Of a stretch of 64,000 bases of DNA, positions 3,925 through 58,849 are shown in pieces. Origin of the DNA: Candidatus Latescibacterota bacterium (lineage in GTDB: Bacteria > Latescibacterota > UBA2968 > GCA-2709665). The notes under the pieces are model-generated. The model ran no database searches and was not told the DNA's origin. It was given only the letters and a program-made list of their open reading frames with translations. Each line of letters opens with the position of its first letter. The first letter of the stretch is position 1. The position numbers and the translations under genes were made by a program. The stretch is from assembly GCA_965116875.1 (NCBI GenBank), contig OZ220733.1, positions 2,656,001 through 2,720,000 on the forward strand, read 5' to 3'.

Positions 3925-3977
3925 GGCAGCGTCTCCCGGTTCCCATTTCCAAACGCGACGGCGTCGATCAGGCCGGT

Positions 3978-4006
3978 AATCTATTGAACTCATCCGGTGA
4001 AGTCAA
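3978..4006 (-). promoter_or_regulatory. Sigma70-like promoter of the reductase operon with an overlapping imperfect palindrome
   Basis: Minus strand TTGACT-17 nt-TAGATT; TTGAACTCA-TCCGG-TGAAGTCAA spans the spacer and -35 box. Confidence 0.6.
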
Positions 4007-4400: not shown

Positions 4401-5435
4401 TCAACCCCCGATCTGGTACATTTCCACCTTGGAAAAGGACGGCATTTCCGCGGTCTCGGCCGTCCTCAATTCGGAATAACGATCCTCCCGGCCCTCCCAG
4501 ATTTCCGAGATCGTCGCCAGAAGATCTTCATCCGTGGCCCCGTCGCGGAGGGGACCCCTGAGATCCACGCCGGTACCTGCAAACAGGCAGGTAAACACCT
4601 TGCCGTCCGTGGAAAGCCTCGCCCGCGTGCAGTCGCCGCAGAACGGTTGGGTAACGGAGGCGATGACGCCAATCTCCCCGCTCCCGTCGAGATATCGATA
4701 CCGCCGCGCGACCTCGCCCGGATAGTTCGGGGCCACTGCGGTCACCGGCATTTCCTCATGGATTCGTTTCACAATCTCGGCGGCGGGGACCACCTGATCC
4801 AGGCGCCAGCCGTTGCGGTTGCCCACGTCCATATACTCGATAAAGCGAACGATATGCCCCGTTCCGTGAAAATGCCTGGCAAGATCCACGACGGTATGGT
4901 CGTTCACCCCGCGCTGAACCACAGCGTTGATCTTCAGTGGAGCAAATCCCGCCGCTTCCGCCGAACGGATCCCCTCCAGCACCTGAGAGACCGGGTACCC
5001 TCGTCCGTTCAACCGTTCGAATACGTCCTCGTCCAGGGAATCCAGACTGACGGTTATCCTGTGCAGCCCGGCGCCCTTGAGTTTCCCGGCCATCCGCGGA
5101 AGCAGATACCCGTTGGTGGTAAGCGTGAGGTCTTCCACGCCGTCGATCGCCGTCAGGCGCCTGACCAGCGCCGGCAGTTCCCGCCTCAGCAGGGGCTCAC
5201 CGCCGGTGATCCGGACTTTGCGCACGCCCAGACCCACGAAAAGACGCGTGAGCCGTTGGATTTCCTCGAACGTCAATATTTCGGCCCTGGGCAGGAACGA
5301 ATAGTTCTCCCCGAAGACTTCGGCCGGCATACAGTACGGACACCGGAAATTGCATCGGTCCGTAACTGAAATCCGAAGATCCCTGAGCGGTCTGCCGAAT
5401 CTGTCTGTCGCCGCGTCCACCATGGGAACAGCCAC
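4401..5435 (-). CDS. moaA: GTP 3',8-cyclase (molybdenum cofactor biosynthesis)
   Basis: [37 protein letters not shown]-terminal IGG. Start may be the ATG at 5423. Confidence 0.96.
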
Positions 5436-14727: not shown

Positions 14728-14760
14728 AAAAAAAATCCGGACACAACTTCTGCCCGGATC
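14728..14760 (-). terminator. Rho-independent terminator of the radical SAM gene
   Basis: Minus strand ATCCGGGCA-GAAGTTG-TGTCCGGAT followed by a T run, about 25 nt after the stop at 14786. Confidence 0.8.
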
Positions 14761-14785
14761 TGTTCGACGTCTGTGGGCGGTCCGC

Positions 14786-16723
14786 TCAGGAGGCCACCGG
14801 CTCTTGTACGTCCGGCGCCGCAACGATCTTTCGAATGGTATCCTTCTCGGAGCCGCAGCAACCGTTGTCTTTCGGACTGTCGTTGATGAGGGGAAGTTCG
14901 AGTTCGCCGTTTTCCGTCTCCCGGACCCGCAGTGTGTGTTCCGCTCCCGGCAGCGGCATGTCGCGGTTGCCCGCGTAAATGGGGTGCCGGCCCTTCGTCT
15001 TGAACCAGTCCGCCGTTGTGGCGGTCATATGCATATTCTCTATAATCTGACGCCATCCGACCCCCGTGTTGTACGCGCAGAAGGAGATTTCACCCTCCTG
15101 GGTACCGTACGGGATCACGCACATTTCAGTCCGGCGGAAGTCGTAGGTCCACAGGTCCTGGAACCACATTCCGCCGACCCACATGATGCGCCACTGCCTG
15201 TCGTCCGGCCTCGGTCCGCCGCTGATGGAACCCCCCACCCTGCGGTCCAGTATGCGTGCCAGATCCTGAATGCCGAACCCGGCCGGCGCCTTCCGCGGAT
15301 TGAAATTCCGAAGCAGCGACATGCCCACCTGCAGCTTGATCCATCCGGGGTCCCGCGCGGTGTCCGTCATCACCTCGATGTCCTTCATGAACTGTTCCTG
15401 GTTGAAGAACTCGGTAATGGACGCCCACTGCCTGGTCTTCTCGTTCACGACAATATGGACGGCGGAACCGCAGTTGGGATGACAGGAGCAGGTTTGTCCC
15501 CCGAACTCGACGTCCTGCCCGCGCAGATGGTCGGCCAGCGTGGTAAACAGCGTCCCCGATCCCAGCGGGTACCAGTCCCGATGGGCGTCGATCTTCCCGC
15601 CCGACCACGAATGGAGATCGTGGGCGAGGTGGGAAATGGTGTAGCGCTGCCGATGCCGCATCTCGTCGGTGATGTCCTCGTCGCGCCCGGTAAACGACAC
15701 GGGCTGGAAGGAAATCGAACCGACTTTGTCGCTGTTATCGATGCAGAACTGGAGAATCGGCCCTACCTGATCGTTGTTGATGGAGTTTAAAACGGTCGTG
15801 ACCGGGGTGATATCGACACCGGCGCGGGAGAGGTTCTCCATGGCCAGCAACTTGGCGTCGAACAGATTGGAAATGTGCCGGTGCTGATTGGCCTCATTGG
15901 TTACGCCGTCGAACTGCAGGTACGCCATGTCGAATCCGGCCGCCTTCGCCTCGAACGCGAAATCCGGTTCTTCGGCGAAGCGAAGCCCGTTGGTGGCGGC
16001 CTGAACGCACCAGTAGCCGACCTCTTTGGCATACCGGCACGCATCCAGAAAATGAGGCGAAATCGTGGGTTCTCCGCCCGAAAACTGTACCGACATCTGC
16101 CGGCGCGGTTTGAAGGAAATCGAAGCGTCCAGGATCCGCTTAATGTCGTCCATCGTCAGTTCGTGGACGTAACCGACCTGGTTCGCGTCCATGAAACAGG
16201 GATTGCACATCATGTTGCAACGGTTGGTCAGGTCGATCGTCAGCACCGCCCCCCGCCCGTATTTGATGCTGGACGTACCGTGGCGGTGTACGTGCTCGTC
16301 TCCCCATGTGCTGTAATCACGCCCCGGAAACCGGTTTTCTATCAGGTGCGTAAATTCCGGATCGATTGAGAGCACGTCCTCATACGGGCCATGGACCGAA
16401 CACGTCTTCCGCATCAGAACGCACCCGTTTTCCTCGAGGATCTGCGCCTTGATCTCCCCGGGATTGCCGTGTACGAGTTCTCCAATGTCCCGCGTGCCTT
16501 CGATGATGGCGGACCGAACCTCCTTCACGCAATCGGGACACAGCGAATCGGTTTCACGCGGAAACCCGAGCGTGGGCATGGATCGCTGGTAACTCTTCAA
16601 AAGCGGCGCCGACGCCCATGCAGGCTGGAATGGCTGACCCTCGGGGAGCCTGGTATTCACGCTCTGGAAGACATTCCAGGCGACGTTGGCGGCTCCCGAA
16701 ACGACTTGGTCGCGAAAACTCAT
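14786..16723 (-). CDS. Radical SAM protein, tetraether lipid synthase (Tes/GDGT-MAS, MJ0619-like) family homologue
   Basis: TDSLCPDC...KTCSVHG, IDLTNRCNMMCNPCFMDAN, QFSGGEPT, YLQFDG, CSCHPNCG, MWFQD, CVIPY...SFCAYN. Confidence 0.82.
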   Translation of the reverse strand: MSFRDQVVSGAANVAWNVFQSVNTRLPEGQPFQPAWASAPLLKSYQRSMPTLGFPRETDSLCPDCVKEVRSAIIEGTRDIGELVHGNPGEIKAQILEENGCVLMRKTCSVHGPYEDVLSIDPEFTHLIENRFPGRDYSTWGDEHVHRHGTSSIKYGRGAVLTIDLTNRCNMMCNPCFMDANQVGYVHELTMDDIKRILDASISFKPRRQMSVQFSGGEPTISPHFLDACRYAKEVGYWCVQAATNGLRFAEEPDFAFEAKAAGFDMAYLQFDGVTNEANQHRHISNLFDAKLLAMENLSRAGVDITPVTTVLNSINNDQVGPILQFCIDNSDKVGSISFQPVSFTGRDEDITDEMRHRQRYTISHLAHDLHSWSGGKIDAHRDWYPLGSGTLFTTLADHLRGQDVEFGGQTCSCHPNCGSAVHIVVNEKTRQWASITEFFNQEQFMKDIEVMTDTARDPGWIKLQVGMSLLRNFNPRKAPAGFGIQDLARILDRRVGGSISGGPRPDDRQWRIMWVGGMWFQDLWTYDFRRTEMCVIPYGTQEGEISFCAYNTGVGWRQIIENMHMTATTADWFKTKGRHPIYAGNRDMPLPGAEHTLRVRETENGELELPLINDSPKDNGCCGSEKDTIRKIVAAPDVQEPVAS

Positions 16724-16866
16724 CTGGAGGTCCCTTCAAAATGGTCCAAACGAAACCGTTACCACATTGTGTAACGTAAAGTTACGGCAATACCGGATGG
16801 CCAATGCGAGAGGCAAAGAGAATATAAACAAAAACGTATCGCCGTCAAGCGCTTCGTGTTCAGTAG

Positions 16867-17646: not shown

Positions 17647-17861
17647 GCCTGCTGTTCCTGTTCGAATGACCCTGCCGCAAGACCTTGACGCTCCGATTTC
17701 CAATCCCTATTATGCCTCACGCGGGACGGATAAACAAGTGATTTTCGCGTGATTACAGTTTCGACCGGAACAGCGTGCTACCCGGCGCGGCTGACGCCGA
17801 ACACCCCAACGCGGGCGCGCCCGTGCGGATGCGCCCCGTATTTCAGAACAGGAGAGTTCCC

Positions 17862-18764
17862 ATGCGGCGGTTTACCCGAAAACCGTATCTGACAGGGTCC
17901 GAAGCCGTCGAACGCGGCCAGGTTCGCGGCACGATCGAGCTCGGCGAGACGCTCGTCATCGAGACACCCGGCGGCGCCGACGGCGACCTGAAGCCCGGCG
18001 TGATTCCCGAAACCACCACGCCGCGAGGCTCCCGCCAGGGAGGACCGTTTCTCATTGATGGCATCGAACCCGGCGACTGGGTTTCCATAGAAGTCATCGA
18101 TATCGAGGTGGGTCCCTACGGGTATTACAACAACGGCGGACCGTTTCGAGGCAGCCTGCGTTCGGTCGCTCCTGTCAGGGACGGCCTCCTGCACTTCCCT
18201 CCGGACTTCGTGGTCCCCATCCGCCCGATGATCGGCGTGATGCAACTGGCGCCCGTATCCTCGGATACGGGTCCCTGGAACCACGGCGGCAACATGGACT
18301 TCAATTCCATCTGTCCGGGCAGCATCGTGCATATCCGCTCGCAGCGATACGGCGGTCACTTCTACGTGGGCGACGTCCACGCCCGCATGGGCGACGGCGA
18401 ACTCACCGGCACCGGCGTGGAGATCGATTCCGCGCTCACGCTGCGCTTCGATCGCTCGCCGGGTTTTCCCGCGGGCGGCCCGGTTGTGGAAACCGCCGAC
18501 GAGATCCTCACCAGCGGTATGGGCGCGAACTGGGAAGAGGCGTTGAAAATCGCCTGGACGGACATGGTCGGACTCATCGCGGACCGTTACGATACCACGG
18601 TGGAACATGCCAACCTGATCGTGGGTACGATTGGCGACGCGCGGCCGGGGTACGCCGCGGGCCAACTGAATACCCGGGGCTTCAGGAAAGAAAACGCGTA
18701 CGTCACCTGCCAGATCGGCATCACGAAAGACCTGAACAGGACCGGGCGCCCGTTCCGGCCGTAA
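17862..18764 (+). CDS. Acetamidase/formamidase family protein
   Basis: PIRPMIGV, HGGNMD, GDVHARMGDGE; AGGAG RBS before ATG 17862. Confidence 0.88.
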   Translation: MRRFTRKPYLTGSEAVERGQVRGTIELGETLVIETPGGADGDLKPGVIPETTTPRGSRQGGPFLIDGIEPGDWVSIEVIDIEVGPYGYYNNGGPFRGSLRSVAPVRDGLLHFPPDFVVPIRPMIGVMQLAPVSSDTGPWNHGGNMDFNSICPGSIVHIRSQRYGGHFYVGDVHARMGDGELTGTGVEIDSALTLRFDRSPGFPAGGPVVETADEILTSGMGANWEEALKIAWTDMVGLIADRYDTTVEHANLIVGTIGDARPGYAAGQLNTRGFRKENAYVTCQIGITKDLNRTGRPFRP

Positions 18765-18794
18765 TTGACGTCTTCCTCTTCGAGAGGGCACCTC

Positions 18795-20951
18795 ATGTTC
18801 CATCATGACGAATTCCCCGATCGACTCGTTCACATCTCGGATGTCTCGTTCTTCGAAGCACTGGACCCCGATCACCCCGGGCTTGAAGAGGTCCGGTGCG
18901 CGGCGGATTCGAGACGCTACGATGAGGCGTTCGCCGCATGGTGGCGGCATTTCCTCTCCCGCAGCAACCCGGTCAATCCCTTTGCGCGTTCGGCGGATCA
19001 ACTCACGCCGAGGGTTGCCGCCAACCCGGACCTGGCGGACACCATCGTCAACGGGGGACGCCGACAATTCGGACAGGTCGATATCGACTTCTCCGGGCCG
19101 GTCGCGTTCAACGCCTGGTTTGGCGACCAGTCCAAATACGGCTTCCACTACCTGGGATGGATGGATTGCCTGACCAGGGCCGCCCTTGACACCCGCGATG
19201 TGCGGTACATCGACGCCTACCTCGAAATATTTCGACAGTGGTACGCCGCGAGACACGAAATCACGGGCGCCCGCCGGATGCATCCTGTTTTCTACGAACT
19301 CGGTCTCTCTGTAAGAAGCCACCGCTTCGTGAACTTCCTTTACGCCGTCAGGCTCCTGGAAATGGGCCGCCTGCTGACTCCCGACCACGTCCGCCTGTTC
19401 TTCAAGTCGCTCCTGGGCGCGGCCCGGTGGCTGACGATGGAACAAAACGCCAAAGGCTACCGCGAGGGAAACTGGCAGGTGCATGGCATCTCGGCGATGA
19501 TCCTTATCGGGTTCCTGCTGCCCGAACTCCGTGAGTCCGGCGACTTCCGTTCCGTCGGCGCGCACTACCTCGAGCAGCACATGGAGAAAGACTATTACGC
19601 GGACGGCGGCCACAGCGAACGCTGCTATTCCTACGGCAGCGGCTGCCTGCGCCACCTGGAAGAGGCCACCCTTCTGGCGGAAGCCAATCCCGACCTTTCC
19701 GTGCCTGCGACGCTCGATTGGCGGGAGCGAACCTCGAATGCCTACGCCTGGTTTCTCAAGATGTCCGGACCGGGCGGCGAAATGCCCGGCATCAACGACG
19801 GCGGCTTTCTGAACGGGACGGGCATCCTGAAACAGGCGTGCGACTTCACCGGAGACGGGACGTATCTCTGGCCCATCCGCCACAAGCCGGCCGCGAACGG
19901 TCCCGAGCCGGCAGAACCCGGTTTCGAGAGCCTTTGCCTTGATTCCAGCGAGTTCTGCGTGATGCGCTCGGGCTGGGAACCTGAAGACGGGTTCCTGCTC
20001 GTCAACCACGGGCAGTGGCCCGGCGGCCACAGCCACATGGGCATTCTGGACATTAACCTGTACGCCTACGGGGTGCCCCTGGCAGCCGAAGTTTCCCGGT
20101 TCGGTCCCTACGACGCACCTTGGGACATGTACTTCCGCTCCGAACAGGCGCATAACCACGTCGTCATCGAAGGCGCGCCCTCCGCCCGGCCCGAAATCCG
20201 GGGCGAAGAGATCCAGTTCGGCAGCACCGAGTCATGGGACTTCTTCTCCGGCCGGCACCGCGCGTACGAAGCCAGCGCGGGCGTTGTGATCGAACGCAGG
20301 ATCCTCTTCTTCAAGCCGTGGGGCTTCCTCGTCTCGGACGCGGTCGCGTGCTCGCATCGCCGGAGAAGCGCGCTCTGGTACCTGCACAGCGTCTTTCCCT
20401 TCACCACGCACGACACGGTCGCCTGCGCCGAAGGCGATCGCGCGGGCCTCCTCGTTGCCCCTGCGAACCGCAGACAGCTCAAATATGCGTTCAGCGGGAT
20501 CGATTACCTGGAGGAAATGGTGCGCGAAATCCCGGTCTACTCCGGCGATCCGCCCGTCGCGCCGTGGCCGGACCGGTATTTCATCGCCCTTCGGGGCTGG
20601 GGTGTCGCGGAGCCCGTCGTCCCGTTCGACGTCCTTCTGCTGCCGTATCAGGGCGCCCGTCCGGATGCGAGCGTCACGACCCTCGAGTGCCGGATCGACG
20701 GCCGCGCCGAATCTCCGGTTCTGCCCCGCGCGTTGAAGATTGCCGCCGGAGACCGTCACGTTCTCGTGATTCACGGCGCTCCGGGTGTCTCCGTCACCGC
20801 CAATGACATTTCCTTCTCGGGACACGCCGCCGCCATCGAAACCAGGAACGGCCGTCCGGAGAGGGCCTTCATTCACGGCGGCCGCCTCCTGACGGTAGCC
20901 GGGCGGAGCATCCCCATCTCAAGCCGGATGACGCAGGAAATCGAACTCTGA
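18795..20951 (+). CDS. Heparinase II/III family (polysaccharide lyase-like) protein
   Basis: GNWQ, DGGHSERCYSY, VMRSGW, GHSH, AHNHVVIEG. Confidence 0.82.
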   Translation: MFHHDEFPDRLVHISDVSFFEALDPDHPGLEEVRCAADSRRYDEAFAAWWRHFLSRSNPVNPFARSADQLTPRVAANPDLADTIVNGGRRQFGQVDIDFSGPVAFNAWFGDQSKYGFHYLGWMDCLTRAALDTRDVRYIDAYLEIFRQWYAARHEITGARRMHPVFYELGLSVRSHRFVNFLYAVRLLEMGRLLTPDHVRLFFKSLLGAARWLTMEQNAKGYREGNWQVHGISAMILIGFLLPELRESGDFRSVGAHYLEQHMEKDYYADGGHSERCYSYGSGCLRHLEEATLLAEANPDLSVPATLDWRERTSNAYAWFLKMSGPGGEMPGINDGGFLNGTGILKQACDFTGDGTYLWPIRHKPAANGPEPAEPGFESLCLDSSEFCVMRSGWEPEDGFLLVNHGQWPGGHSHMGILDINLYAYGVPLAAEVSRFGPYDAPWDMYFRSEQAHNHVVIEGAPSARPEIRGEEIQFGSTESWDFFSGRHRAYEASAGVVIERRILFFKPWGFLVSDAVACSHRRRSALWYLHSVFPFTTHDTVACAEGDRAGLLVAPANRRQLKYAFSGIDYLEEMVREIPVYSGDPPVAPWPDRYFIALRGWGVAEPVVPFDVLLLPYQGARPDASVTTLECRIDGRAESPVLPRALKIAAGDRHVLVIHGAPGVSVTANDISFSGHAAAIETRNGRPERAFIHGGRLLTVAGRSIPISSRMTQEIEL

Positions 20952-20953
20952 TT

Positions 20954-21131
20954 AGACCTACCCCCTGGCCCCCTTCCTGCAGGAAGGGGGAACATGGGTC
21001 GATAGGATTGGGTTTGCGCATGTGCCTGCATGGTATTCTCCTTTCAATAAGTGTGTTTTTGAACGACCGGCAGGGAATCCCCGGTTTACCTCCCCCTTTC
21101 CTTTAGGAGAGGGGGCCGGGGGGAGAGGTCT
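20954..21131. repeat. REPIN-like element: two inverted C-rich/G-rich palindromes
   Basis: AGACCTACCCCCTGGCCCCCTTCCTGCAGGAAGGGGG ... CCCCCTTTCCTTTAGGAGAGGGGGCCGGGGGGAGAGGTCT. Confidence 0.7.
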
Positions 21132-21224
21132 GTGGGGCTGGGTGGGTTTTGAATTTGGTTTTCGCTTTTGGCTGATGGCTGACGTCTGATAGCTGACAGC
21201 CATGTCTCAATCAAGGAACACGAG

Positions 21225-22808
21225 ATGCCCCAACCACGCATGATGTTCTACCACGACGGACGCCACCCTCTCATCTATATGTACGAGCCTCCGATGCAGA
21301 AGGAGGAATTCGAAGCCGGCGTGGACGAACTGGCGGGCACGCCCGTGGACGCCATCATGTTCTGTCTGGGTGACGGCCGCACGTTCCTCCACGACACGAA
21401 AGTGGGCGAAATCTGGGGCCACAACGTGGAAAAATGGCCCCACCTCATCTTCGACAGGGCCAACCGGAACGCCATGCATCTCATCCGGGAAGGCCACGAT
21501 CCGCTCCGCCTTATCTGCGACCGGGCCCACGAGAAGGGCATGCTCGTCTACCCCACCCTCCTCGTGCAGCAGGGGCGCGGGGACCGCGGCGAGGATGTCC
21601 GGTGCTCCGATTTCCGGTTTGAGAACGCCCACCTCGAAATCGGCGCGCGTGGAGACCTCGATCCTGATTTTCCCGGCTTTTCCTGTCTCGACTTCAGTCA
21701 CCGGGAGGTCAGGGATGAACGGTTCGCGATTGTCGAGGAAACCCTGAACGCCTACCCGGTCGACGGCTTCGAACTGCAGCTCAACTACACGCCGTATTAT
21801 TTCCACCCGGACGCGGTTGAAGAAGGCAGGGAGATCATGACTGAATGGATCGACCGGGTCCATCGCGCCGTGAAGAAAAGCGGCGGTGAACGCGAACTTG
21901 CGGTGCGCATTCCGGCCGACGTTGTGGGATGCCTGCAGGTGGGGTTGGATGTGCGGGAGTGGCTGCGGCGGGGAATCGTGGACGTCCTGATCGGGCAGAC
22001 GTTTTCCACGCCGGAACTGCTCGACTCGACGGTCGACTTCGGTCCGCTCGTCGACGCGGCCGAGGGCGCCGGATGCCGGGTCCACGCCGCGCTGCACAGC
22101 CACGTCGACTCCGACCGCCTGGCCGAAGCCACCGTCGAAATGATCCGGGCGGCGGCCTGCAACTACTGGGCCCAGGGGGTTGACGGACTCTACCTGGCCC
22201 ACTGGTTCGGCAACTGGCCGTACCAGGCGTCTTTCTATGAGAAGCTGAGGGAACTGCCCCACGCGGACGTGATGGCCTCGAAGGACAAGTACTACTATGT
22301 TCCCACCGAGACCGGGCGGTACCCCAGGCCCGTCACCGAACCCGGCATCGGCATGAATCTTCCCGCGGGGCTGACCGTGGGAGGACCGGCCCATATAGAA
22401 ATCAGGATCAGCGACGATCTCCCCCGCTGGGATGCAACCGGGCGGGTACACGACGTTGTCCTGCGCGTGCGGATCATGAATTCCACCGAACTGGACCGGT
22501 TCCGTTTCCGTTTGAACGGGAAAGACCTTCCGGACACGCAGATGCGAAGGATCAACGAGATGTACCGCATGAGCGCCCCGCGATACCGGACCGGCTCAGG
22601 ATACTGGTACATATTCCGTCCGGACCGGACCAACTGGCCGCGCACGGGCCGGAACGAGCTGGAGGTCCACCTGATCGAGCGGGACCCGGGTGTCACTCCG
22701 GACGTCTACGTCCGCGACGTGGAACTGGAGATCCGGTACCTCATGGGGAGGAGCTTTCACCGGATGGACGATCCGGACCTGGGCCCGTCCGAACCTTCGG
22801 GGGAGTAG
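21225..22808 (+). CDS. Glycoside hydrolase-like (GHL10-type TIM barrel) protein, paralogue 1
   Basis: YHDGRH, GHDPL...RAHEKGM, LDFSHREVRD, VDGFEL, GLDVREW, GVDGLY; beta-sandwich-like C-terminus. Confidence 0.65.
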   Translation: MPQPRMMFYHDGRHPLIYMYEPPMQKEEFEAGVDELAGTPVDAIMFCLGDGRTFLHDTKVGEIWGHNVEKWPHLIFDRANRNAMHLIREGHDPLRLICDRAHEKGMLVYPTLLVQQGRGDRGEDVRCSDFRFENAHLEIGARGDLDPDFPGFSCLDFSHREVRDERFAIVEETLNAYPVDGFELQLNYTPYYFHPDAVEEGREIMTEWIDRVHRAVKKSGGERELAVRIPADVVGCLQVGLDVREWLRRGIVDVLIGQTFSTPELLDSTVDFGPLVDAAEGAGCRVHAALHSHVDSDRLAEATVEMIRAAACNYWAQGVDGLYLAHWFGNWPYQASFYEKLRELPHADVMASKDKYYYVPTETGRYPRPVTEPGIGMNLPAGLTVGGPAHIEIRISDDLPRWDATGRVHDVVLRVRIMNSTELDRFRFRLNGKDLPDTQMRRINEMYRMSAPRYRTGSGYWYIFRPDRTNWPRTGRNELEVHLIERDPGVTPDVYVRDVELEIRYLMGRSFHRMDDPDLGPSEPSGE

Positions 22809-22872
22809 TCGCGCGGGATCAGTTCGGCTGGACGGGGAGAGACATCATCGGGAGGGATGGGAAAGGTAATCA

Positions 22873-24339
22873 ATGAGAAAAAAACGCACGATCTATTTCA
22901 ACGACGCCCGCCACTACTATCTGTTCGTCTTCGAACCGCCGATGCGTCTGGAAGACGCCTGGGTGCCCGTAGACGAGGTCGCCGGTACGGCCGTGGACAC
23001 GTTTGTCTACGGCGTCTCCCGTGCGGACGGTCTCTTCTACCCCTCCAGGATCGGCATCATGTTCGGTGACGATCTGCGGCCGTTCCGGCACGTCCACGAG
23101 TGGCGCGCCTGGGAGAACATGCAGAGTCTCATCGCCCGCGGCCTGGACCCTCTGACCGTCCTGGTCGACCGCGCGCACGAGAAGGGCATGGACTTCATCG
23201 CCAGCCTGAGGATGGGCGGCTACGGCGGCATGGCCCCGGAACACGCGCTCAATAACGGAGGGCGGGGTTTCGTCCATCCGGAAGTGCGCGATCATCAGCG
23301 GGCGATCCTGGAGGAACTCGCCACGCGGTACGCGGTCGAAGGCGTGGAACTGGACTTCGCCGCCTCGCCCGGCGGATGTCCCTTCTGGCTGCGGGCGGAA
23401 GACGCGTCCGAATACACGCCGGTGATGACGGATTTCGTAAGAGAGACCGCCGAAATCGTCCGTGGCCGGCCGGGGGGTGCCGCGTCGATCGGCGCCCGCG
23501 TCTACCCCACGGAAGAACTGAACCTGAAGGCCGGTCTGGACGTGCGGACCTGGATTCGGGACGGGTTGGTCGACTTCCTGGTTCCGATGCTCTATCTCGA
23601 CTTCGTCCTGGACGCCAATATGCCGGTCGGCTGGCTCGTGCAGGCCGCCCACGACCACGATATTTCCGTCTACGGCATGCTTCAGCCCTACAGCAGCGAC
23701 GAGAGCCGGCGGTTCAATACGGCCGAAAACGCGACCGCCCCGATGATGCGCGCGGCCGCCGCGAATTTCCGGGAACTGGACGTCGACGGCCTGTACACCT
23801 GGTTTCTCCCGTGGCCCGTGGACGAAGCCGGCCGCAGTCTCCTCTCGCAACTGGGCGATGCCGAGCTTGTACGGGAAGCCGACAAGCACTACTTCCTGCG
23901 CCGCCGGTGCGACGAGGCAGCCGAATACGACTACGGCGCCTATCTGCCCCTTGAGATTGCCTCACCAGAACCGGGAAGATACCGCGAGATCCCCTTCTCC
24001 ATCGCCGACGAACCCGAAAACGACCGGATACGGCGCATCCGCCTGAGGATCGGGGTCAGCAATCTCGTCTCGGCGGACCGGCTCGAGATCCGGTTGAACG
24101 GCGCCGGACTGGACGACAGGTCCTGTCGTCGTTCACCGATCCGTTCCCGGGATCCGTACGCGGGTCAACTGCTGGAATTCGACCTGGAAAACGTTCGTCC
24201 CCGGAAGGGCCGGAATGTGCTCGAAATATTCCTGCGGGAACGGCCTCCCGGATTCGAAGGAGGGATCGTGGTCGAAGACGTGGATATCTTCGTCGAATAC
24301 GGAACATTTCCGACTCCTCATCAGGGGTCGATCGAATGA
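22873..24339 (+). CDS. Glycoside hydrolase-like (GHL10-type) protein, paralogue 2
   Basis: YFNDARH, GLDPL...RAHEKGM, SLRM, EGVELDF, GLDVRTW; aligns by eye to paralogue 1. Confidence 0.65.
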   Translation: MRKKRTIYFNDARHYYLFVFEPPMRLEDAWVPVDEVAGTAVDTFVYGVSRADGLFYPSRIGIMFGDDLRPFRHVHEWRAWENMQSLIARGLDPLTVLVDRAHEKGMDFIASLRMGGYGGMAPEHALNNGGRGFVHPEVRDHQRAILEELATRYAVEGVELDFAASPGGCPFWLRAEDASEYTPVMTDFVRETAEIVRGRPGGAASIGARVYPTEELNLKAGLDVRTWIRDGLVDFLVPMLYLDFVLDANMPVGWLVQAAHDHDISVYGMLQPYSSDESRRFNTAENATAPMMRAAAANFRELDVDGLYTWFLPWPVDEAGRSLLSQLGDAELVREADKHYFLRRRCDEAAEYDYGAYLPLEIASPEPGRYREIPFSIADEPENDRIRRIRLRIGVSNLVSADRLEIRLNGAGLDDRSCRRSPIRSRDPYAGQLLEFDLENVRPRKGRNVLEIFLRERPPGFEGGIVVEDVDIFVEYGTFPTPHQGSIE

Positions 24340-24372
24340 CCCGATGGGAATCAGGGCAGGTATCCGGCGGCG

Positions 24373-25956
24373 TCAATAGAGAACGACCACTTCCACGTCC
24401 GTCAGGACGAGGTCGCACGTCAACTGCGGATGGCGTTCAACCAGGCCGACGTTGACGACGTGCTTCCCCCGGGAGATTTCCGTGGATCGCAGCGGGAAAC
24501 ACAGCCACACCGCGCGGCTCACGTCGGAAATACGGCGGATGCCGGGCGGAGGCTGGAAGGCGCCGCCCGGAGGATTGGTGTTGTCCATGACGCAGTAGCG
24601 GACTTCAGGGTCTTCCAGCTCCCGGCCGTCCAGGCATACCCGAACGCGATCGCCGTCCACCCACTGGTCGAGGCGGACGCGGAGTTCCAGGTGCGACGGG
24701 CCATCGCCCCCCACGTCGTCGGCAATGTCCAGCGTGATGGCCGGCATTTCGCCCGTCATCGTATTCTTGAGGGCAACCGGCACCTCCCCCAGGATCCGGT
24801 CGATGCGGTAGGCGCCGCGCCAGGGTCCTTCCTTCTGAATGAACCGGTGTGTGGCCGCATAGACCTTATCGGTGCGGCGGAGCGTTTCGGGCGATGCGAT
24901 CTGCGAGAGCAACTCCCGTTTCATGTCCCGGTTGGCGTGCCAGTTGAACACGTAGATGCCGTCGGCGCCGGCGCGATGGTAGCGGGAGGCAATCGCCCGG
25001 GTGCGCATTCGATCCTTGACTTCAGGCGCTTCCGGGCCCACGAACGGGTCCGGCAGTCCGCTGTCGAATCCCGCGTAGACGGCGATCCCCCTGTCGCGGC
25101 ACATCTCCACGAACGGGGCCACCTCCAGAGACGCATCGGTTACGGCGCCCCCTCCCAGAATCAGGACGTCCACCAGTCCCTCTTCGATCCACACGGGGAT
25201 ATCGTAGCCGATGCGGCGGCACATTTCCTGAGAGCCTGCCACGCGCACCGCCAGATAGAATGGCCTGCCGCGCCGCTTGGCAACGTCGTCCGTTAACTGC
25301 CGGACCCGCCGCTGGAGGTCGGTAAGCACGTACCGCAGCCGGTAGGCCTCGTCCTCGGGAAGGTGAAACGCGTGACGCTGCCAGTCCAGTTCCACGCCGT
25401 CCCAGTCGTACCGCCGGACGACCTCCTCGATATGGGTATACCGGTGCTCGCGGACTTCGGGGACAGCCATATTCCACGAGAGCGCGAACCACTCCGACGT
25501 CCGCTCGCCCAGCACCCACTCCGGGTGCTCCCGCCGCATCTGGGTCAGTTCGCTGTGGTGAAGCGTTGGGAGGTCTGCCACCTGCGCCCCGTCGAAGTGG
25601 TTGTCGTTCATGCGCACGGATGCGTAGACGGCCATGCCCCGGGCGCGGCCGTGTTCGATCAGCGAGACGTGCGGGTCCTCTCCCCGCTCGAGCATCAGGC
25701 GGATGTTTTCGGTGTGGGTATACGCCGAGACGTTCTCGTACCTTCGCCCGTGAACGTCGCCCAGCATTTCGAGCGCGGAATCCGGCCAGCGGGCGGCGTG
25801 CTCGCCGATGCACCAGAACAACGCCCCCACCTGCGTTTCCTCGATTGGCGCGTAGGCCTTCTCGAGAAACGCTTCCATGGACTGGGGCACTGGGGAATAG
25901 CCGTGGGGCGCCCCGTCCCAGTTGTAGATGATCCCGTAGTCAAAGGGTCCGGACAT
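24373..25956 (-). CDS. Glycoside hydrolase-like (GHL10-type) protein, paralogue 3
   Basis: IIYNWDG, SVRMNDNH, HPEW, DGVELDWQRH, GADGIYVFN; GGAGG RBS. Confidence 0.68.
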   Translation of the reverse strand: MSGPFDYGIIYNWDGAPHGYSPVPQSMEAFLEKAYAPIEETQVGALFWCIGEHAARWPDSALEMLGDVHGRRYENVSAYTHTENIRLMLERGEDPHVSLIEHGRARGMAVYASVRMNDNHFDGAQVADLPTLHHSELTQMRREHPEWVLGERTSEWFALSWNMAVPEVREHRYTHIEEVVRRYDWDGVELDWQRHAFHLPEDEAYRLRYVLTDLQRRVRQLTDDVAKRRGRPFYLAVRVAGSQEMCRRIGYDIPVWIEEGLVDVLILGGGAVTDASLEVAPFVEMCRDRGIAVYAGFDSGLPDPFVGPEAPEVKDRMRTRAIASRYHRAGADGIYVFNWHANRDMKRELLSQIASPETLRRTDKVYAATHRFIQKEGPWRGAYRIDRILGEVPVALKNTMTGEMPAITLDIADDVGGDGPSHLELRVRLDQWVDGDRVRVCLDGRELEDPEVRYCVMDNTNPPGGAFQPPPGIRRISDVSRAVWLCFPLRSTEISRGKHVVNVGLVERHPQLTCDLVLTDVEVVVLY

Positions 25957-26059
25957 CGATACCTCCTGTTGAAGTGTCCTGCTCCCGGGAAATCTTTTCA
26001 TTCGGGCAACCAGCCTATACGATCAAATCGCAGCGAACGTTTCCGGTACCAATTTGCGA

Positions 26060-26087
26060 TTGACATTACATCGCGTCCCTCTATTTT
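26060..26087 (+). promoter_or_regulatory. Putative sigma70 promoter
   Basis: TTGACA-16 nt-TATTTT in the divergent intergenic region. Confidence 0.4.
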
Positions 26088-26258
26088 ACGGGCGAATTCA
26101 CACCTTTCAAACATCAGTTTCTGACGCTGACGGCAGTGAACTTGTCAACTGCATGAGCCCCGCAGTATTCGTCACCAGCTTGCGGTTGTTCTGCACTGTT
26201 TAACTCATTTTGTGCTTTTTGTGCTTTTTGTGGCAATTGTTCCACTCAACCCGCTCTT

Positions 26259-27041
26259 ATGAAATCCGCATTCTGCACCAACGCATTCGGCAACGAACAG
26301 GCCGATCAGGAAAAGGCCATCCCCTACCTGGCTGAACTGGGTTACGACGGCATCGAGCTCTGGCAGCAGTACCTCTGCCAGGCGGACCTGGCATGGGTCC
26401 GCTCGATCGCAGCCGGACACGGCCTCGAAATCGTGCAGATCTGCCCCTACTTCGACTTCACCACCAGCCAGGCCACCTGGGACCAGAGCATCCGGGATGC
26501 CGAGACCTTTATCGAATACGCGGTCGCGCTCGACTGTCCCTTCATCCGCACCTACACCGGCAACGTGGGGAGCGCGGACGCCACCGCAGGGCAATGGGAC
26601 GCCTGCGTCCGGGGCCTGCGGAGAATCTGTGAAATGGGCGCCGCGTACAATATCGTCTTCCCCTTGGAAACACACCAGGTGATTCACCATGGGCCCAACC
26701 TGACGGATACCAGCCCGAGCACGTTGAAACTGCTCGACGACGTGGGCATGGAGAACCTGACGGTCAATCTCCAGACGCCTCTCGTCGGCGAATCCGTCTT
26801 CCATACCGTCGAGCAGCTCGGGGAACGCGTTGTCCACCTGCACGCCCACAACTGGGTGGGCGGCTGGCCGGAACTCACGTTTCTGGACGCCGGCGACGTG
26901 GATTTCACCGCGTTCGTCCGGCGCCTGCAACACAAGGGCTTCGACGGCTATATTTCGATCGAACACGGCAGCCATCATCCGCCGTACGAGACGGCTGCGC
27001 ACGAAATCGCATACCTGAAGCAACTCATCGAAGGACAATAG
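26259..27041 (+). CDS. Sugar phosphate isomerase/epimerase (xylose isomerase-like TIM barrel)
   Basis: GYDGIEL, LETH, VHLHA, GDVDF, GFDGYISIEH. Confidence 0.88.
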   Translation: MKSAFCTNAFGNEQADQEKAIPYLAELGYDGIELWQQYLCQADLAWVRSIAAGHGLEIVQICPYFDFTTSQATWDQSIRDAETFIEYAVALDCPFIRTYTGNVGSADATAGQWDACVRGLRRICEMGAAYNIVFPLETHQVIHHGPNLTDTSPSTLKLLDDVGMENLTVNLQTPLVGESVFHTVEQLGERVVHLHAHNWVGGWPELTFLDAGDVDFTAFVRRLQHKGFDGYISIEHGSHHPPYETAAHEIAYLKQLIEGQ

Positions 27042-27096
27042 CCCGCAGCCTGAAGCAGCCGGTCAAAGGCGTTGTCCCGGCTCAGGAGACAGATAA

Positions 27097-27258
27097 GAAG
27101 CTGTTTTAAAATAACCGGCGAGTTCCCGAGCGCGAGCGAAAAAGCGGCGGTCAAGGCGGGAGAACCCGCCCATATTTGTCTATACGGGTGGGTTTGACCA
27201 ACGCCGACCCCCGCTTTTGCAGCCGCGCGAAGACCGCTGGGGATTTTAAGACAGCTTC
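27097..27258 (-). mobile_element. 162-bp MITE, copy 2, flanked by a TAA direct repeat
   Basis: TAA|GAAGCTGTTTTAAAAT...ATTTTAAGACAGCTTC|TAA. Confidence 0.9.
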
Positions 27259-27287
27259 TAAGGTCGAGTCGACGATCGGAGTCCGCC

Positions 27288-30974: not shown

Positions 30975-31048
30975 TTTGGCCACAAAAAGCACAGAAGGTA
31001 TCGGTGTGAAACGAAGAAAGCGGAGGTTTGAGTACAGTTCCCGCCGAC

Positions 31049-31714
31049 TCATTCCTCGTTCAGGAGATCCCCAATCCTCTCCTCCAGGTGGTCCGTCCGA
31101 CCAAACGAGACGTCCCTTAAGATTCCCTTGCGGTCGACCAGGATGGTGGACGGGGTTCCGCGCAGCGCGAATTTCTCAAACGTCTCAGCCGAATATTCCT
31201 TCGACCTCAGATAGTCCTTCACTCTCTGTATGATCTCCACTCTGTCATTCTCGGGCCGAGAGTCGAAGTCGGGTATCTGTGGATAGATGAGGTCCATGAT
31301 CGCATCGCGGCCGGGTTCGCCGGACGTCCTCGTCAGTTTGTCCATACCGAGCGGGAACGGGATTTCATAGGGCAGCCGGTTTCCTTCCCGCAACTGTCCG
31401 CTCATCGCAAGCGCCTTCCTGGTTTCCCCGATCACCCGACCCGTCTCGGCAAGGAGCCTCAGGTTCTCGAGCGTATTCCTGTCAAAGTCCTCGAAGGCGG
31501 TGGCCAGTCCGATCACGCGCACCCCGGCATCCCTGTATTTATCGTACATGCGTATCGCCTCGGGAATGGCATATATGAAGCATCCGGGACAATTGACCTG
31601 GAAGACTTCCAGCACCACGACGTGATCCCGCTCCCTGTCGAAGTTGGTCGGGCCGCCCTGCACCCAGTTCGAGACGCCGAAGTTGGGCGCCATCTGTCCG
31701 ATCTCTACTGACAT
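31049..31714 (-). CDS. Thioredoxin-fold redoxin (TlpA/AhpC-like)
   Basis: FQVNCPGC CxxC and GTPSTILVDRKG cis-Pro loop. Confidence 0.85.
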   Translation of the reverse strand: MSVEIGQMAPNFGVSNWVQGGPTNFDRERDHVVVLEVFQVNCPGCFIYAIPEAIRMYDKYRDAGVRVIGLATAFEDFDRNTLENLRLLAETGRVIGETRKALAMSGQLREGNRLPYEIPFPLGMDKLTRTSGEPGRDAIMDLIYPQIPDFDSRPENDRVEIIQRVKDYLRSKEYSAETFEKFALRGTPSTILVDRKGILRDVSFGRTDHLEERIGDLLNEE

Positions 31715-31836
31715 TCTTCCGGATTCCTTTCGCCCTCGGGTGTGTGGTCGCGAAGTATATTGAATGGGACAACCGCGTGGATCTGCGTCGCTTCCGCGCT
31801 TTGTTGTTTTCGTTCTCCCGTACCGTCGATGCGTAG

Positions 31837-31861
31837 GTAGGGGCGACCCTTGTGGTCGCCC
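31837..31861 (+). repeat. GTAG-family REP palindrome
   Basis: GTAG-GGGCGACC-CTTGT-GGTCGCCC. Confidence 0.75.
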
Positions 31862-32033
31862 GCCTCATGACGTTCGCGATCGAACCGGTTAAGAACCCGC
31901 TTGCGCAGGCTGCCGCCAGGCGTGAATATTACACAATACATCGCGAGTTGAAAAACCGGATCTGTCGCGCCCATGGCGCAACCATCGCACGCTCCGATTC
32001 CCGCCGGTCATCCTCACGCCAAAGGAAATTACC

Positions 32034-33248: not shown

Positions 33249-33305
33249 AGTTTCGGCAATCGTCCTGTGGCGCGTTTCGCTGAATCGAATCGAACAGGAG
33301 ACGTC

Positions 33306-58816: not shown

Positions 58817-58849
58817 AACCGGGCCGACACTCAGAGGTCAATTCCTGCA

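What the first reader, a model, noticed from the sequence alone, without database searches (positions are those of the whole stretch)
14786..16723. Bacterial tetraether lipid synthase (Tes/GDGT-MAS) homologue: candidate membrane-spanning lipid producer
Seen: a stand-alone 645-aa radical SAM gene with its own terminator, carrying CPDC...CSVH, CNMMCNPC, CSCHPNC, MWFQD and CVIPY...FCAYN. Established: this motif order characterises the MJ0619/Tes family, which couples lipid tails in archaeal GDGT synthesis; similar homologues occur in brGDGT-producing Acidobacteria. Inference: this organism, whose other genes suggest a little-studied lineage, may make branched GDGTs or other membrane-spanning lipids, whose bacterial sources are poorly known.
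Basis: partly seen in the sequence, partly recalled or inferred. Interest (0 to 1): 0.8.

Follow-up and report, generated by a model that had tools for sequence, protein, structure and literature searches.

The report
Bacterial tetraether-synthase-like enzyme, one cluster short
This gene from a sponge-associated bacterium encodes a real but divergent relative of the archaeal enzyme that welds two membrane-lipid tails together, so it is a plausible, already-proposed and still untested maker of membrane-spanning lipids.

Summary

It belongs to the Tes/GDGT-MAS superfamily. The best solved relative is 7TOL (E 1.6e-55), and the predicted fold matches it over the whole chain (TM 0.87-0.88).

It is not a Tes proper:
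- It scores 296 bits against a curated cutoff of 450.
- It falls in a bacterial sister clade (100/100 support).
- It lacks all three Cys of the [4Fe-4S]N cluster.
- It keeps the rubredoxin-like site, the radical SAM motif and the candidate [4Fe-4S]C ligands.

The most likely function is tail-to-tail C-C coupling of membrane lipids. This is inferred, not shown.

Substrate routes exist in the genome: a FAR/AGPS ether-lipid operon, a GGGP synthase and a DGGGPS-like prenyltransferase. In relatives the gene often sits near cobalamin-type radical SAM genes, including HpnR-like lipid-methylase relatives.

The papers I read say bacterial Tes homologues have been in print since 2022 and remain untested. 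This scan has noted the same branch before on other DNA (33 notes in at least 32 genomes).

Verdict: a new variant of a known kind, of moderate interest.

The parts
14786..16723 (-). Coding sequence of the 645-aa Tes/GDGT-MAS-like radical SAM protein, stop codon included
   Evidence: ORF and translation. NF045702 gives 296 bits over residues 58-565. 7TOL matches at E 1.6e-55. The gene is intact in 14 of 14 genomes of the genus.
16821..16848 (-). Sigma-70-like promoter match (TTGACG-16-TATATT), about 100 nt upstream of the ATG
   Evidence: Consensus scan scoring 10 of 12. The region holds 6 such sites against 1.2 +/- 1.2 in shuffles. Not shown to be functional.
14733..14761 (-). Intrinsic-terminator-like hairpin with a T run, 25 nt after the stop codon
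   Evidence: 11 pairs, 5 G-C, 7-nt loop; sequence read. Consensus match only.
16559..16723 (-). N-terminal extension (residues 1-55) with no counterpart in the 7TOL match or the Tes profile
   Evidence: The Tes profile starts at residue 58 and the 7TOL match at residue 91. The model places a helix at 3-23, with mean pLDDT 77 for residues 1-10 and 93-97 for residues 11-60.
16370..16564 (-). Rubredoxin-like zinc-ribbon domain (residues 54-118). Candidate ligands are C62, C65, C108 and H111. It holds a roughly 22-residue insert (66-88) relative to Tes proper.
   Evidence: PF23545 at 46.7 bits, cutoff 27. The ligand columns are conserved in both clades. The published motif is C9X2C12X20C33X2H36; here the middle spacing is X42.
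16268..16294 (-). HVHRHGTSS (residues 144-152), occupying the place of the CX3CX2C..H motif that binds [4Fe-4S]N in GDGT-MAS. It contains no Cys.
   Evidence: The three Cys columns are 90-95% Cys in the Tes-proper clade (n=20) and 0% in the window's clade (n=33). The ligands C73, C77, C80 plus His are given.
15746..16231 (-). Radical SAM core (residues 165-326) with CX3CX2C at C169, C173 and C176 (window 16196-16219)
   Evidence: PF04055 at 59.2 bits. The motif is conserved in both clades.
15470..15490 (-). CSCHPNC (residues 412-418). H415 and C418 are shared with Tes proper. C412 and C414 are largely specific to the bacterial clade.
   Evidence: C412 is Cys in 10% of clade A and 82% of clade B. 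C414 is 40% and 91%. C418 is 100% and 88%. H415 is invariant among 28 clade members.
15077..15169 (-). C-terminal cluster region. M519 (in MWFQD), C535 and C549, together with C418, are the candidate ligands of [4Fe-4S]C, the cluster that carries the substrate radical in GDGT-MAS.
   Evidence: C535 is Cys in 100% of clade A and 88% of clade B; C549 in 100% and 94%. M519 is at least 90% conserved across 75 sequences. The 3 Cys + Met439 ligation and the mechanism come. The assignment is by alignment only.
14789..15031 (-). C-terminal tail (residues 565-645) with a vicinal Cys pair, C622-C623. The tail is disordered from residue 610 in the model.
   Evidence: pLDDT is below 50 for residues 610-645. 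A C(x0-2)C motif in the tail occurs in 17 of 31 clade-B rows and 4 of 33 clade-A rows; those 4 are the bacterial members of clade A.

Best explanation
The gene encodes a functional radical SAM enzyme of the Tes/GDGT-MAS superfamily, in a widespread bacterial sister clade.

The enzyme keeps the radical SAM cluster, the rubredoxin-like iron site and the C-terminal [4Fe-4S] cluster. In the archaeal enzyme that C-terminal cluster holds the first substrate radical through a C-S bond. The window protein has lost the surface-exposed N-terminal [4Fe-4S] cluster.

The most likely reaction is the same chemistry as Tes. Two rounds of 5'-deoxyadenosyl radical hydrogen abstraction at the ends of two lipid chains, with the first radical parked on the C-terminal cluster, would form one C(sp3)-C(sp3) bond. 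The product would be a membrane-spanning or macrocyclic glycerolipid.

The likeliest substrates are the organism's own alkyl or acyl glycerolipids, for which it has a FAR/AGPS ether-lipid operon. Its isoprenoid glyceryl ethers (GGGP synthase plus a DGGGPS-like prenyltransferase) are a less likely alternative.

Shown: the gene is real, it belongs to the superfamily, its clade position, its ligand inventory, its fold and the genome context. Inferred: the lipid substrate, the coupling reaction and the product.
For: Family and fold:
- Tes is the best of 53 NCBIfam hits (296 bits over profile positions 2-482 of 486; next is TrsS at 200).
- 7TOL is the best PDB sequence hit (E 1.6e-55; next is SkfB at 7e-6).
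- The AF2 model (pLDDT 89.8, pTM 0.89) matches 7TOM/7TOL at TMt 0.88/0.87 over 544-547 columns. The next fold, MoaA, reaches about 0.5.

Catalytic ligands:
- The candidate ligands of the catalytic clusters are conserved: C169/C173/C176, and C418/C535/C549 with M519.
- The lost [4Fe-4S]N domain lies on the enzyme's surface and its role is stated to be unclear.
- GDGT-MAS itself binds bacterial ester phospholipids (7TOM).

Conservation:
- The protein is intact in 14 of 14 genomes of the genus.
- It is 57-71% identical across at least eight phylum labels.

Substrate supply in this genome:
- A FAR, unassigned protein, AGPS-like, SDR operon.
- GGGPS over two curated cutoffs.
- A DGGGPS-like UbiA protein.

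Context in relatives:
- A B12-binding radical SAM lies within the fetched flanks in 25 of 80 loci. All 4 that I scanned of the 15 distant-type ones best match the hopanoid C-3 methylase HpnR at 318-351 bits.
- Lipid A genes lie nearby in 3 of 80 loci.

Literature:
- Luteitalea pratensis (Vicinamibacteria) makes iso-diabolic acid, has no Mss homologue and has a Tes homologue (table S21).
Against: - The protein falls below the curated Tes cutoff (296 against 450).
- It sits in a sister clade apart from every named archaeal enzyme (100/100 support).
- One of the four metal sites is missing.
- In the papers I read, no member of the bacterial homologues has been assayed.
- In table S21, only 3 of 14 iso-diabolic-acid-producing acidobacteria had a Tes homologue under that paper's strict criteria.
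- The Terriglobus roseus member of this clade has lost C418, C535 and C549, although that species makes iso-diabolic acid.
- The commonest neighbours in other phyla are a short AMP-binding-like protein (36 of 80 loci) and a ChaC-like protein (24 of 80). These are not typical lipid genes. Neither was found in this genome with single-protein queries.
- In this genus the gene has no functional neighbour at all.
- The cobalamin-type partner has no close copy in this genome.
- Within its phylum the gene is patchy (25 of 151 genomes), whereas GGGPS (145 of 151) and the DGGGPS-like gene (142 of 151) are near-universal. Co-occurrence therefore says nothing.
Confidence: 0.5

Rival explanations
1. The chemistry is as in the best explanation, but the substrate is isoprenoid. 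The enzyme would couple the phytanyl or geranylgeranyl-derived tails of archaeol-like diethers made by the genome's GGGP synthase and DGGGPS-like prenyltransferase. The product would be a bacterial GDGT-like tetraether or a macrocyclic diether.
For: - GGGPS scores 191 bits on TIGR01769 (cutoff 161.6) and 270 on NF003198 (cutoff 247).
- One UbiA protein best matches the archaeal DGGGPS models (204 and 210 bits).
- Both genes are near-universal in the phylum (145 and 142 of 151 genomes).
- FCB-group GGGPS and DGGGPS genes were co-expressed in E. coli in Villanueva et al. (PMC7852524, methods passage). That paper says it could not assess tetraether potential because the synthase was then unknown.
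- The archaeal enzyme's natural substrates are such diethers.
Against: - The DGGGPS-like protein is below both curated cutoffs (296 and 269).
- No G1P dehydrogenase or CarS was found.
- I did not search for a geranylgeranyl reductase.
- GGGPS and the DGGGPS-like gene are present in about 95% of the phylum while the Tes-like gene is in 25 of 151, so they are not linked.
- I did not test whether the clade's other hosts (Gemmatimonadota, Vicinamibacteria, Myxococcota) have GGGPS.
- Neither prenyltransferase gene has lipid neighbours.
Confidence: 0.1
2. The clade has diverged to a different reaction or substrate. Options include radical chemistry on a small molecule, peptide or cofactor activated by the AMP-binding-like partner and processed by the ChaC-like partner. 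Another option is a lipid modification other than tail coupling, such as C-S bond formation or cyclisation. Loss of one cluster and gain of C412/C414 and a Cys-pair tail would mark the change.
For: - It is a sister clade with a long separating branch, and its scores are well under the cutoff.
- The [4Fe-4S]N ligands are lost, and new conserved Cys appear at 412/414 and in the tail.
- A gene order of ChaC-like, short AMP-binding-like, then this gene is kept in Gemmatimonadota, Myxococcota and Acidobacteriota loci (36 and 24 of 80).
- The partner matches NRPS adenylation domains and fatty-acyl ligases equally weakly.
- A second Methanosarcina paralogue (MA_1114) made no GDGT in the published assay, so paralogues in this family can differ in activity.
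Against: - The whole four-domain fold of the lipid enzyme is kept (TM 0.87-0.88).
- The cluster that does the special chemistry is kept.
- The neighbours that can be named best are HpnR-like lipid-methylase relatives and lipid A genes.
- The partner genes are absent from this genome with the queries used, yet the enzyme is strictly conserved in the genus.
Confidence: 0.3
3. It is a 7,8-dihydro-6-hydroxymethylpterin dimethyltransferase (HMPTM), the older annotation of MJ0619 that some pipelines still attach to members of this clade.
For: - Pfam names the N-terminal domain 'HMPTM N-terminal zinc ribbon'.
- Several JGI records for close relatives carry this name.
Against: - MJ0619 itself was shown by structure and assay to be the tetraether/macrocyclic archaeol synthase.
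- The name is inherited by homology, not tested.
- That methanopterin-type pterins are a trait of methanogens and methylotrophs is recalled, not tested here.
Confidence: 0.02

Closest known systems
GDGT-MAS / tetraether synthase Tes of archaea (M. jannaschii MJ0619, PDB 7TOL/7TOM; NCBIfam NF045702)
   Same: - It has the same four-domain fold (TM 0.87-0.88).
- It has the same radical SAM motif and the same rubredoxin-like CX2C..CX2H site.
- The candidate 3 Cys + Met ligands of the C-terminal cluster that carries the radical intermediate are the same.
- Identity is 26-27% in the structural alignment.
   Different: - It scores below the curated cutoff (296 against 450).
- It sits in a sister clade.
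- All three Cys of [4Fe-4S]N are absent.
- It has a 22-residue insert in the rubredoxin domain, a 55-residue N-terminal extension and an 80-residue tail with a Cys pair, plus extra Cys at 412 and 414.
- The host is bacterial.
- The substrate is unknown.
Bacterial 'Tes homologues' proposed for brGDGT synthesis (Zeng et al. 2022, PMC8941075; Chen et al. 2022 preprint on Ca. Solibacter usitatus)
   Same: The window protein would pass those papers' BLAST-type criteria. Its E-value to the 7TOL sequence is 1.6e-55. The published bacterial tree includes Terriglobus roseus Terro_3123. The T. roseus protein I retrieved (P0128, AFL89353.1), assumed but not checked to be the same gene, lies in the window's clade.
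   Different: - The published Solibacter and Koribacter homologues are 40-42% identical to MA_1486. I could not fetch or place them.
- A separate bacterial group (P0162-like, 545 bits) nests inside Tes proper and keeps the N-cluster Cys.
- The window's clade is the more divergent kind.
- The supplement I could search in that paper does not mention Gemmatimonadetes, Latescibacteria or Calditrichaeota. One supplementary PDF was unreadable.
Mss, the bacterial membrane-spanning lipid synthase of Thermotoga and Thermoanaerobacter (Sahonero-Canavesi et al. 2022, PMC13159169)
   Same: It is a radical SAM enzyme proposed to do the same tail-to-tail coupling, and was shown to make diabolic-type diacids in E. 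coli under anoxia.
   Different: - That paper describes Mss as only remotely related to Tes.
- I had no Mss sequence or model, so I could not search this genome for it.
- None of the 20 other radical SAM proteins I scanned was named as such.
TrsS, radical SAM (seleno)protein (NCBIfam NF045646)
   Same: It is the second-best curated model (200 bits over residues 90-553).
   Different: The score is far below its cutoff of 490. The Tes model scores higher for every clade member tested.

Membership tests
Tes / GDGT-MAS (NCBIfam NF045702 equivalog) | Whole-protein score over the curated cutoff (450 bits) | tested here: not met
   296 bits. Four other members of the window's clade scored 299-313. 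Sixteen 'Tes proper' representatives scored 463-645.
Tes / GDGT-MAS | Radical SAM CX3CX2C motif | tested here: met
   C169, C173 and C176. The motif is conserved in 20 of 20 clade-A rows and 32 of 33 clade-B rows.
Tes / GDGT-MAS | Rubredoxin-like iron site with 3 Cys + 1 His (C9X2C12X20C33X2H36 in MJ0619) | tested here: met
   C62X2C65X42C108X2H111. PF23545 scores over its cutoff. Sequence level only; metal content is unknown.
Tes / GDGT-MAS | [4Fe-4S]N cluster bound by C73, C77, C80 and a His | tested here: not met
   The aligned columns read H144, H148 and S151. They are 0% Cys in 33 clade-B rows against 90-95% in 20 clade-A rows.
Tes / GDGT-MAS | [4Fe-4S]C cluster bound by 3 Cys and a labile Met (Met439) | tested here: met
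   C418, C535, C549 and M519 occupy the columns that are 100% Cys in clade A, and the conserved Met column. The assignment is by alignment. The paper passages I read name only Met439.
Tes / GDGT-MAS | Four-domain fold with lipid pockets | tested here: met
   Foldseek gives TMt 0.88/0.87 to 7TOM/7TOL, covering nearly the whole target.
Tes / GDGT-MAS | Groups with experimentally studied enzymes in a tree | tested here: not met
   In a 71-row ML tree, the window lies in a 35-row clade. It is split at 100/100 from the 36-row clade that holds the 7TOL orthologue (L132, 742 bits), three Methanosarcina proteins and the other named archaea. The root is unknown.
Tes / GDGT-MAS | Conserved active-site Tyr | not tested
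   Mentioned in the review without a residue number. Changing it did not abolish activity.
Tes / GDGT-MAS | Catalyses tail-to-tail C-C coupling of glycerolipids | not testable with these tools
   Needs expression or an in vitro assay.
MJ0619-type architecture (Pfam PF23545 zinc ribbon + PF04055) | Both domains over their gathering cutoffs, in this order | tested here: met
   PF23545 scores 46.7 bits (cutoff 27) at residues 54-118. PF04055 scores 59.2 bits (cutoff 29.5) at residues 165-326.
TrsS (NF045646) | Score over the curated cutoff (490 bits) | tested here: not met
   199.9 bits.
Mss (bacterial membrane-spanning lipid synthase) | Homology to the Thermotoga/Thermoanaerobacter enzymes | not tested
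   No Mss sequence or model was on hand. The paper calls Mss remotely related to Tes.

The most novel reading that the evidence does not exclude
A sponge-associated Latescibacterota bacterium uses this cluster-reduced Tes-like enzyme on archaeal-type isoprenoid diethers made by its phylum-wide GGGP synthase and DGGGPS-like prenyltransferase. It would thereby make GDGT-like tetraethers or macrocyclic archaeol. That would be a bacterial source of 'archaeal' membrane-spanning lipids, with a three-gene set that could be tested directly.
Probability: 0.1. Interest if true: 0.85.

Novelty: new variant of a known kind. Interest (0 to 1): 0.45.

Why it matters
Branched GDGTs are widely used palaeotemperature and pH proxies. 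Their bacterial sources and biosynthetic genes are still unsettled.

If this clade couples lipid tails, three things would follow:
- It would extend candidate producers to Latescibacterota, Gemmatimonadota, Calditrichota, KSB1, Myxococcota and others, including aerobic and host-associated lineages.
- It would help explain membrane-spanning lipids in bacteria that lack Mss.
- It would show that the N-terminal cluster of Tes is dispensable.

This genome combines a Tes-like gene, an AGPS/FAR ether-lipid operon and GGGPS with a DGGGPS-like gene. Relatives pair the gene with HpnR-like cobalamin radical SAM genes. Together these give compact gene sets for heterologous tests.

Against that, the general idea is published, no function is shown here, and the scan has met this branch repeatedly.

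Tried and rejected
- **Operon partners in this genome.** Single-protein searches for the AMP-binding-like and ChaC-like partners found nothing. I did not try a profile search, so this reads 'not found with these queries'.
- **Ger/PlsA proxy.** PF06050 gave no match. The Thermotoga control did not ring either, so this search says nothing about Ger.
- **Grs and Mss.** I had no model or sequence for either. I scanned 20 of the 21 other radical SAM ORFs. One 210-aa ORF was not sent, and none of the 20 was named Grs or Mss. One 659-aa B12 radical SAM stays unassigned.
- **Co-occurrence with GGGPS and the DGGGPS-like gene.** This is uninformative, because both are near-universal in the phylum.
- **Operon partner identity.** A PDB profile search and the protein atlas gave only generic ANL/AMP-binding hits.
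- **Expression.** No RNA holder is listed. I did not lay reads.
- **Cultured carriers.** All 80 loci from the last genome scan had MAG record titles, so Luteitalea or other cultured carriers could not be placed. Solibacter and Koribacter homologues were not retrieved either.
- **Cluster geometry.** I could not test whether C412 and C414 sit near the His-rich patch at 144-148.
- **Literature searches.** A search for Gemmatimonadetes with iso-diabolic acid gave 4 unrelated papers. A search for a functional test of bacterial homologues from 2023 on gave 3 papers, and none appeared from its title or abstract start to assay a bacterial Tes homologue. These searches cover only the held library.
- **Rejected readings.** I rejected the pterin methyltransferase annotation (see rivals). 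I also rejected a pseudogene or relic reading, because the gene is intact and 91-96% conserved across the genus.
Full report
**Observation.** The ORF at 14786..16723 (minus strand, ATG start, 645 aa) is as described. An 11-pair hairpin followed by a T run lies 25 nt after the stop codon. A TTGACG-16-TATATT site lies about 100 nt before the start. A separate promoter-like site precedes the next gene, tig. These are consensus matches only: promoter-like sites numbered 6 against 1.2 expected, and terminator-like sites 5 against 3.2 expected. The flanking genes are an Amidohydro_2 gene upstream and tig, clpP and clpX downstream, with no lipid gene nearby.

**Host.** The genome is a single 5.45-Mb contig, 97.7% complete, and holds one copy of the gene. 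The closest public records (91-95% protein identity) are MAGs labelled Candidatus Latescibacterota or Gemmatimonadota. DNA holders are mostly sponge metagenomes. The gene is intact in 14 of 14 other genomes of the genus and 17 of 18 of the family. It was found in only 25 of 151 sampled genomes of the phylum: 2 of 30 in the sister family f2 and 1 of 64 in family f3.

**Family.**
- Pfam finds Radical_SAM (residues 165-326) and the MJ0619-type zinc ribbon PF23545 (residues 54-118).
- The best of 53 NCBIfam hits is tetraether synthase Tes, aligned end to end (profile 2-482 of 486). It scores 296 bits, below the curated cutoff of 450. TrsS is next at 200 bits against a cutoff of 490.
- The best solved relative by sequence is GDGT-MAS 7TOL (E 1.6e-55, query residues 91-562).
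- I built an AlphaFold2 model from a 75-sequence alignment (pLDDT 89.8, pTM 0.89). It matches 7TOM/7TOL at TM 0.88/0.87 normalised to the target, over 544-547 columns at 26-27% identity. The next fold, MoaA, reaches about 0.5.

**Clade.** An exhaustive search of 50%-identity representatives found 442 clusters at E <= 1e-30. I took the 27 near-full-length ones of the best 150, added 25 of the 80 related loci, and included the window protein.

Scoring 31 representatives and 3 close homologues on the curated Tes model gave two groups:
- Sixteen proteins scored 463-645 bits.
- The window's relatives scored 299-313 bits.
- A few proteins fell in between.

A first tree of 53 rows and a second of 71 rows both split these groups. 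The second tree added 13 named archaeal loci and 5 further bacterial loci. The full IQ-TREE search gave 100% ultrafast bootstrap and 100% SH-aLRT for the split of 36 against 35 rows.

The 36-row side holds:
- the Methanocaldococcus indicus orthologue of the crystallised enzyme (742 bits to 7TOL);
- three Methanosarcina proteins and the other named archaea;
- a nested bacterial group (P0162 with Myxococcales and Pseudomonadota MAGs).

The 35-row side holds:
- the window protein;
- proteins from records labelled Latescibacterota, Calditrichota, KSB1, Bacteroidota, Ignavibacteriota, Gemmatimonadota, Acidobacteriota, Myxococcota, Planctomycetota and Pseudomonadota;
- the Terriglobus roseus DSM 18391 protein;
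- a basal group holding P0130 and two MAG loci labelled Acidimicrobiales and Acidobacteriota.

I named the two groups after seeing the first tree. The root is unknown. No rows were dropped from either tree.

**Metal sites.** Lloyd et al. (PMC9433317, passages read) give four sites:
- a rubredoxin site, C9X2C12X20C33X2H36;
- [Fe4S4]N, bound by C73, C77, C80 and a His;
- the radical SAM CX3CX2C motif;
- [Fe4S4]C, with a labile Met439.

They also state that the rubredoxin and N-cluster domains are on the surface, that the roles of the remaining cofactors are unclear, and that M439A stays active. A 2026 review (PMC13459092, section 2.1 read in full) describes the mechanism: the first substrate radical is held on a sulfide of [Fe4S4]C.

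In my alignment the Tes-proper clade has exactly twelve conserved Cys columns, three per site. The window protein keeps nine of them: C62, C65 and C108 (with H111); C169, C173 and C176; and C418, C535 and C549 (with M519). The three N-cluster columns are 90-95% Cys in the Tes-proper clade (n=20) and 0% in the window's clade (n=33). The window reads H144, H148 and S151 within HVHRHGTSS.

The window's clade also differs in four other ways:
- It has Cys at 412 (82% against 10%) and at 414 (91% against 40%).
- It has a roughly 22-residue insert in the rubredoxin domain.
- It has a 55-residue N-terminal extension.
- It has a long tail with a CC/CGC-type motif. This occurs in 17 of 31 scorable rows, against 4 of 33 in the other clade, and those 4 are that clade's bacterial members. 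Seven of the 71 rows lacked the anchor motif and were not scored.

I could not test whether C412, C414 and the His patch form a new site. The Terriglobus subclade (P0128, P0135, P0153) has lost C418 and C535, and P0128 has also lost C549.

**Context in this genome.**
- Of 22 radical SAM matches, one is this gene. I named 20 of the other 21 with NCBIfam. They are housekeeping or peptide-maturase types plus one unassigned 659-aa B12 enzyme.
- The genome encodes a GGGP synthase over two curated cutoffs. It lies between alaS and ptsI.
- The genome encodes four UbiA proteins. One best matches the archaeal DGGGPS models but is below cutoff (204 against 296, and 210 against 269). It lies between a helicase gene and a DNA ligase gene.
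- No G1P dehydrogenase or CarS was found.
I confirmed its domains: FAR, an unassigned 646-aa protein, an AGPS-like FAD enzyme and an SDR.
- Published Black Sea data list Agps homologues in 67 of 92 Latescibacterota MAGs and ElbD homologues in 50 of 92.

**Context in relatives.** Counts are over ORFs of at least 100 aa in the 80 loci:
- A short AMP-binding-like protein occurs in 36 loci. Clustering gave 37.
- A ChaC-like protein occurs in 24 loci. Where I read the coordinates (for example L043, L057 and L072), these two lie directly upstream on the same strand, in Gemmatimonadota, Myxococcota and Acidobacteriota loci.
- A B12-binding radical SAM occurs in 25 loci. Ten are of one type (50-100% identical to each other's reference). 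For the five of these that I scanned, the best match, all below cutoff, is BchE (181-222 bits), then HpnJ (L027).
- The other 15 are a distant type. For all four that I scanned, the best match is the hopanoid C-3 methylase HpnR at 318-351 bits (cutoff 650; next hit 132-165).
- Sigma-54 response regulators occur in 6 loci.
- Lipid A genes occur in 3 loci.
- The window genome has no close copy of the B12 partner (best match 32% identity over 213 residues).

**Literature.**
- Zeng et al. 2022 (passages read, supplement searched) reported 456 bacterial Tes homologues and proposed a brGDGT role. Their tree includes Terriglobus roseus Terro_3123.
- The Chen et al. 2022 preprint (passages read) chose Solibacter usitatus for its homologue, which is 40% identical to MA_1486.
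- Sahonero-Canavesi et al. 2022 (passages read, table S21 read in part) found Mss and Ger. They found Tes homologues in only 3 of 14 iso-diabolic-acid-producing acidobacteria: A. capsulatum, Koribacter and Luteitalea pratensis.
- A 2025 Black Sea study states that the bacterial homologues' activity is unconfirmed.
- A 2026 paper (AEM, PMC13274423; passages read) builds its brGDGT pathway on Mss and Ger.
- My searches for a functional test and for GDGT-MAS with bacteria found none in the held library, judged from titles and abstract starts.

**Reading.** The gene is a real, conserved member of the Tes superfamily in a distinct bacterial branch. That branch keeps the parts tied to catalysis and lacks one peripheral cluster. 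Lipid tail coupling is the best-supported mechanism, at about 0.5. I put an isoprenoid substrate at about 0.1 and a diverged function at about 0.3. The scan's earlier notes on other genomes reach the same 'one cluster short' reading. I reached it from my own alignment before seeing them.

Noticed in passing
G000:C1:5064295-5065041 (outside the window; L087:8296-9042, minus strand): A GGGP synthase passes two curated cutoffs (TIGR01769 at 191 bits, NF003198 at 270 bits). It lies between alaS and ptsI. The family is present in 145 of 151 sampled genomes of the phylum, 138 of them over the cutoff.
   Followed up: yes
G000:C1:3507379-3508254 (L118:4380-5255, minus strand): A UbiA prenyltransferase has the archaeal DGGGP synthase models as its best matches, both below cutoff. 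Homologues at E <= 1e-30 occur in 142 of 151 genomes of the phylum. No G1P dehydrogenase or CarS was found.
   Followed up: partly
G000:C1:3310673-3317288 (L117:2674-9288): A FAR, unassigned 646-aa protein, AGPS-like enzyme and SDR form an operon. An earlier scan note reported it, and I confirmed it here at the domain level.
   Followed up: partly
Related loci, for example L017:8049-9527, L020:335-1762, L023:3440-4864, L053:7984-9432, L036:8046-9530, L043:2487-4031 (minus strand): Cobalamin-type radical SAM genes lie beside or near the Tes-like gene in 25 of 80 loci. They are of two types: BchE/HpnJ-like and HpnR-like.
   Followed up: partly
Related loci, for example L043:4297-4818 and L043:4815-5921: A ChaC-like gene and a short (310-370 aa) AMP-binding-like gene lie directly upstream of the Tes-like gene in the loci whose coordinates I read. 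The families occur in 24 and 36 of 80 loci. Their function is unknown.
   Followed up: partly
P0128 (Terriglobus roseus DSM 18391), P0135, P0153: This acidobacterial subclade of the window's clade has lost the candidate [4Fe-4S]C Cys ligands. T. roseus is nevertheless listed as an iso-diabolic acid producer.
   Followed up: partly
window 14855-14860 (residues C622-C623): A vicinal Cys pair sits in a disordered C-terminal tail. In the 64 rows I could score, similar CC/CGC motifs occur only in the window's clade and the bacterial members of the other clade.
   Followed up: partly
window 4401-5435, minus strand: A MoaA gene (GTP 3',8-cyclase, 383 bits) lies about 10 kb from the finding, beside a nitrite/sulfite reductase-like gene at 1669-3993. 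It is the second-best 'Tes' hit in the genome only through the shared radical SAM core.
   Followed up: yes
window 58001-60000: G+C falls to 0.416 here, against 0.57-0.66 elsewhere in the window. This may be foreign or RNA-gene DNA.
   Followed up: no
window 17775-36019: Heparinase II/III-like, GHL10-like and FG-GAP repeat (1228 aa) genes suggest a polysaccharide-degradation region.
   Followed up: no
G000:C1:4490685-4492076 and G000:C1:4628250-4629308: A CUAEP/CCAEP-tail radical SAM (seleno)protein (594 bits, cutoff 500) and the arsenosugar radical SAM ArsS (461 bits, cutoff 300) are encoded elsewhere in the genome.
   Followed up: no
G002:C7:345863-347634 (another genome of the phylum): A second, broken copy of the Tes-like gene (3 TGA and 3 TAA stops inside) lies beside an intact copy elsewhere in that genome.
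   Followed up: no
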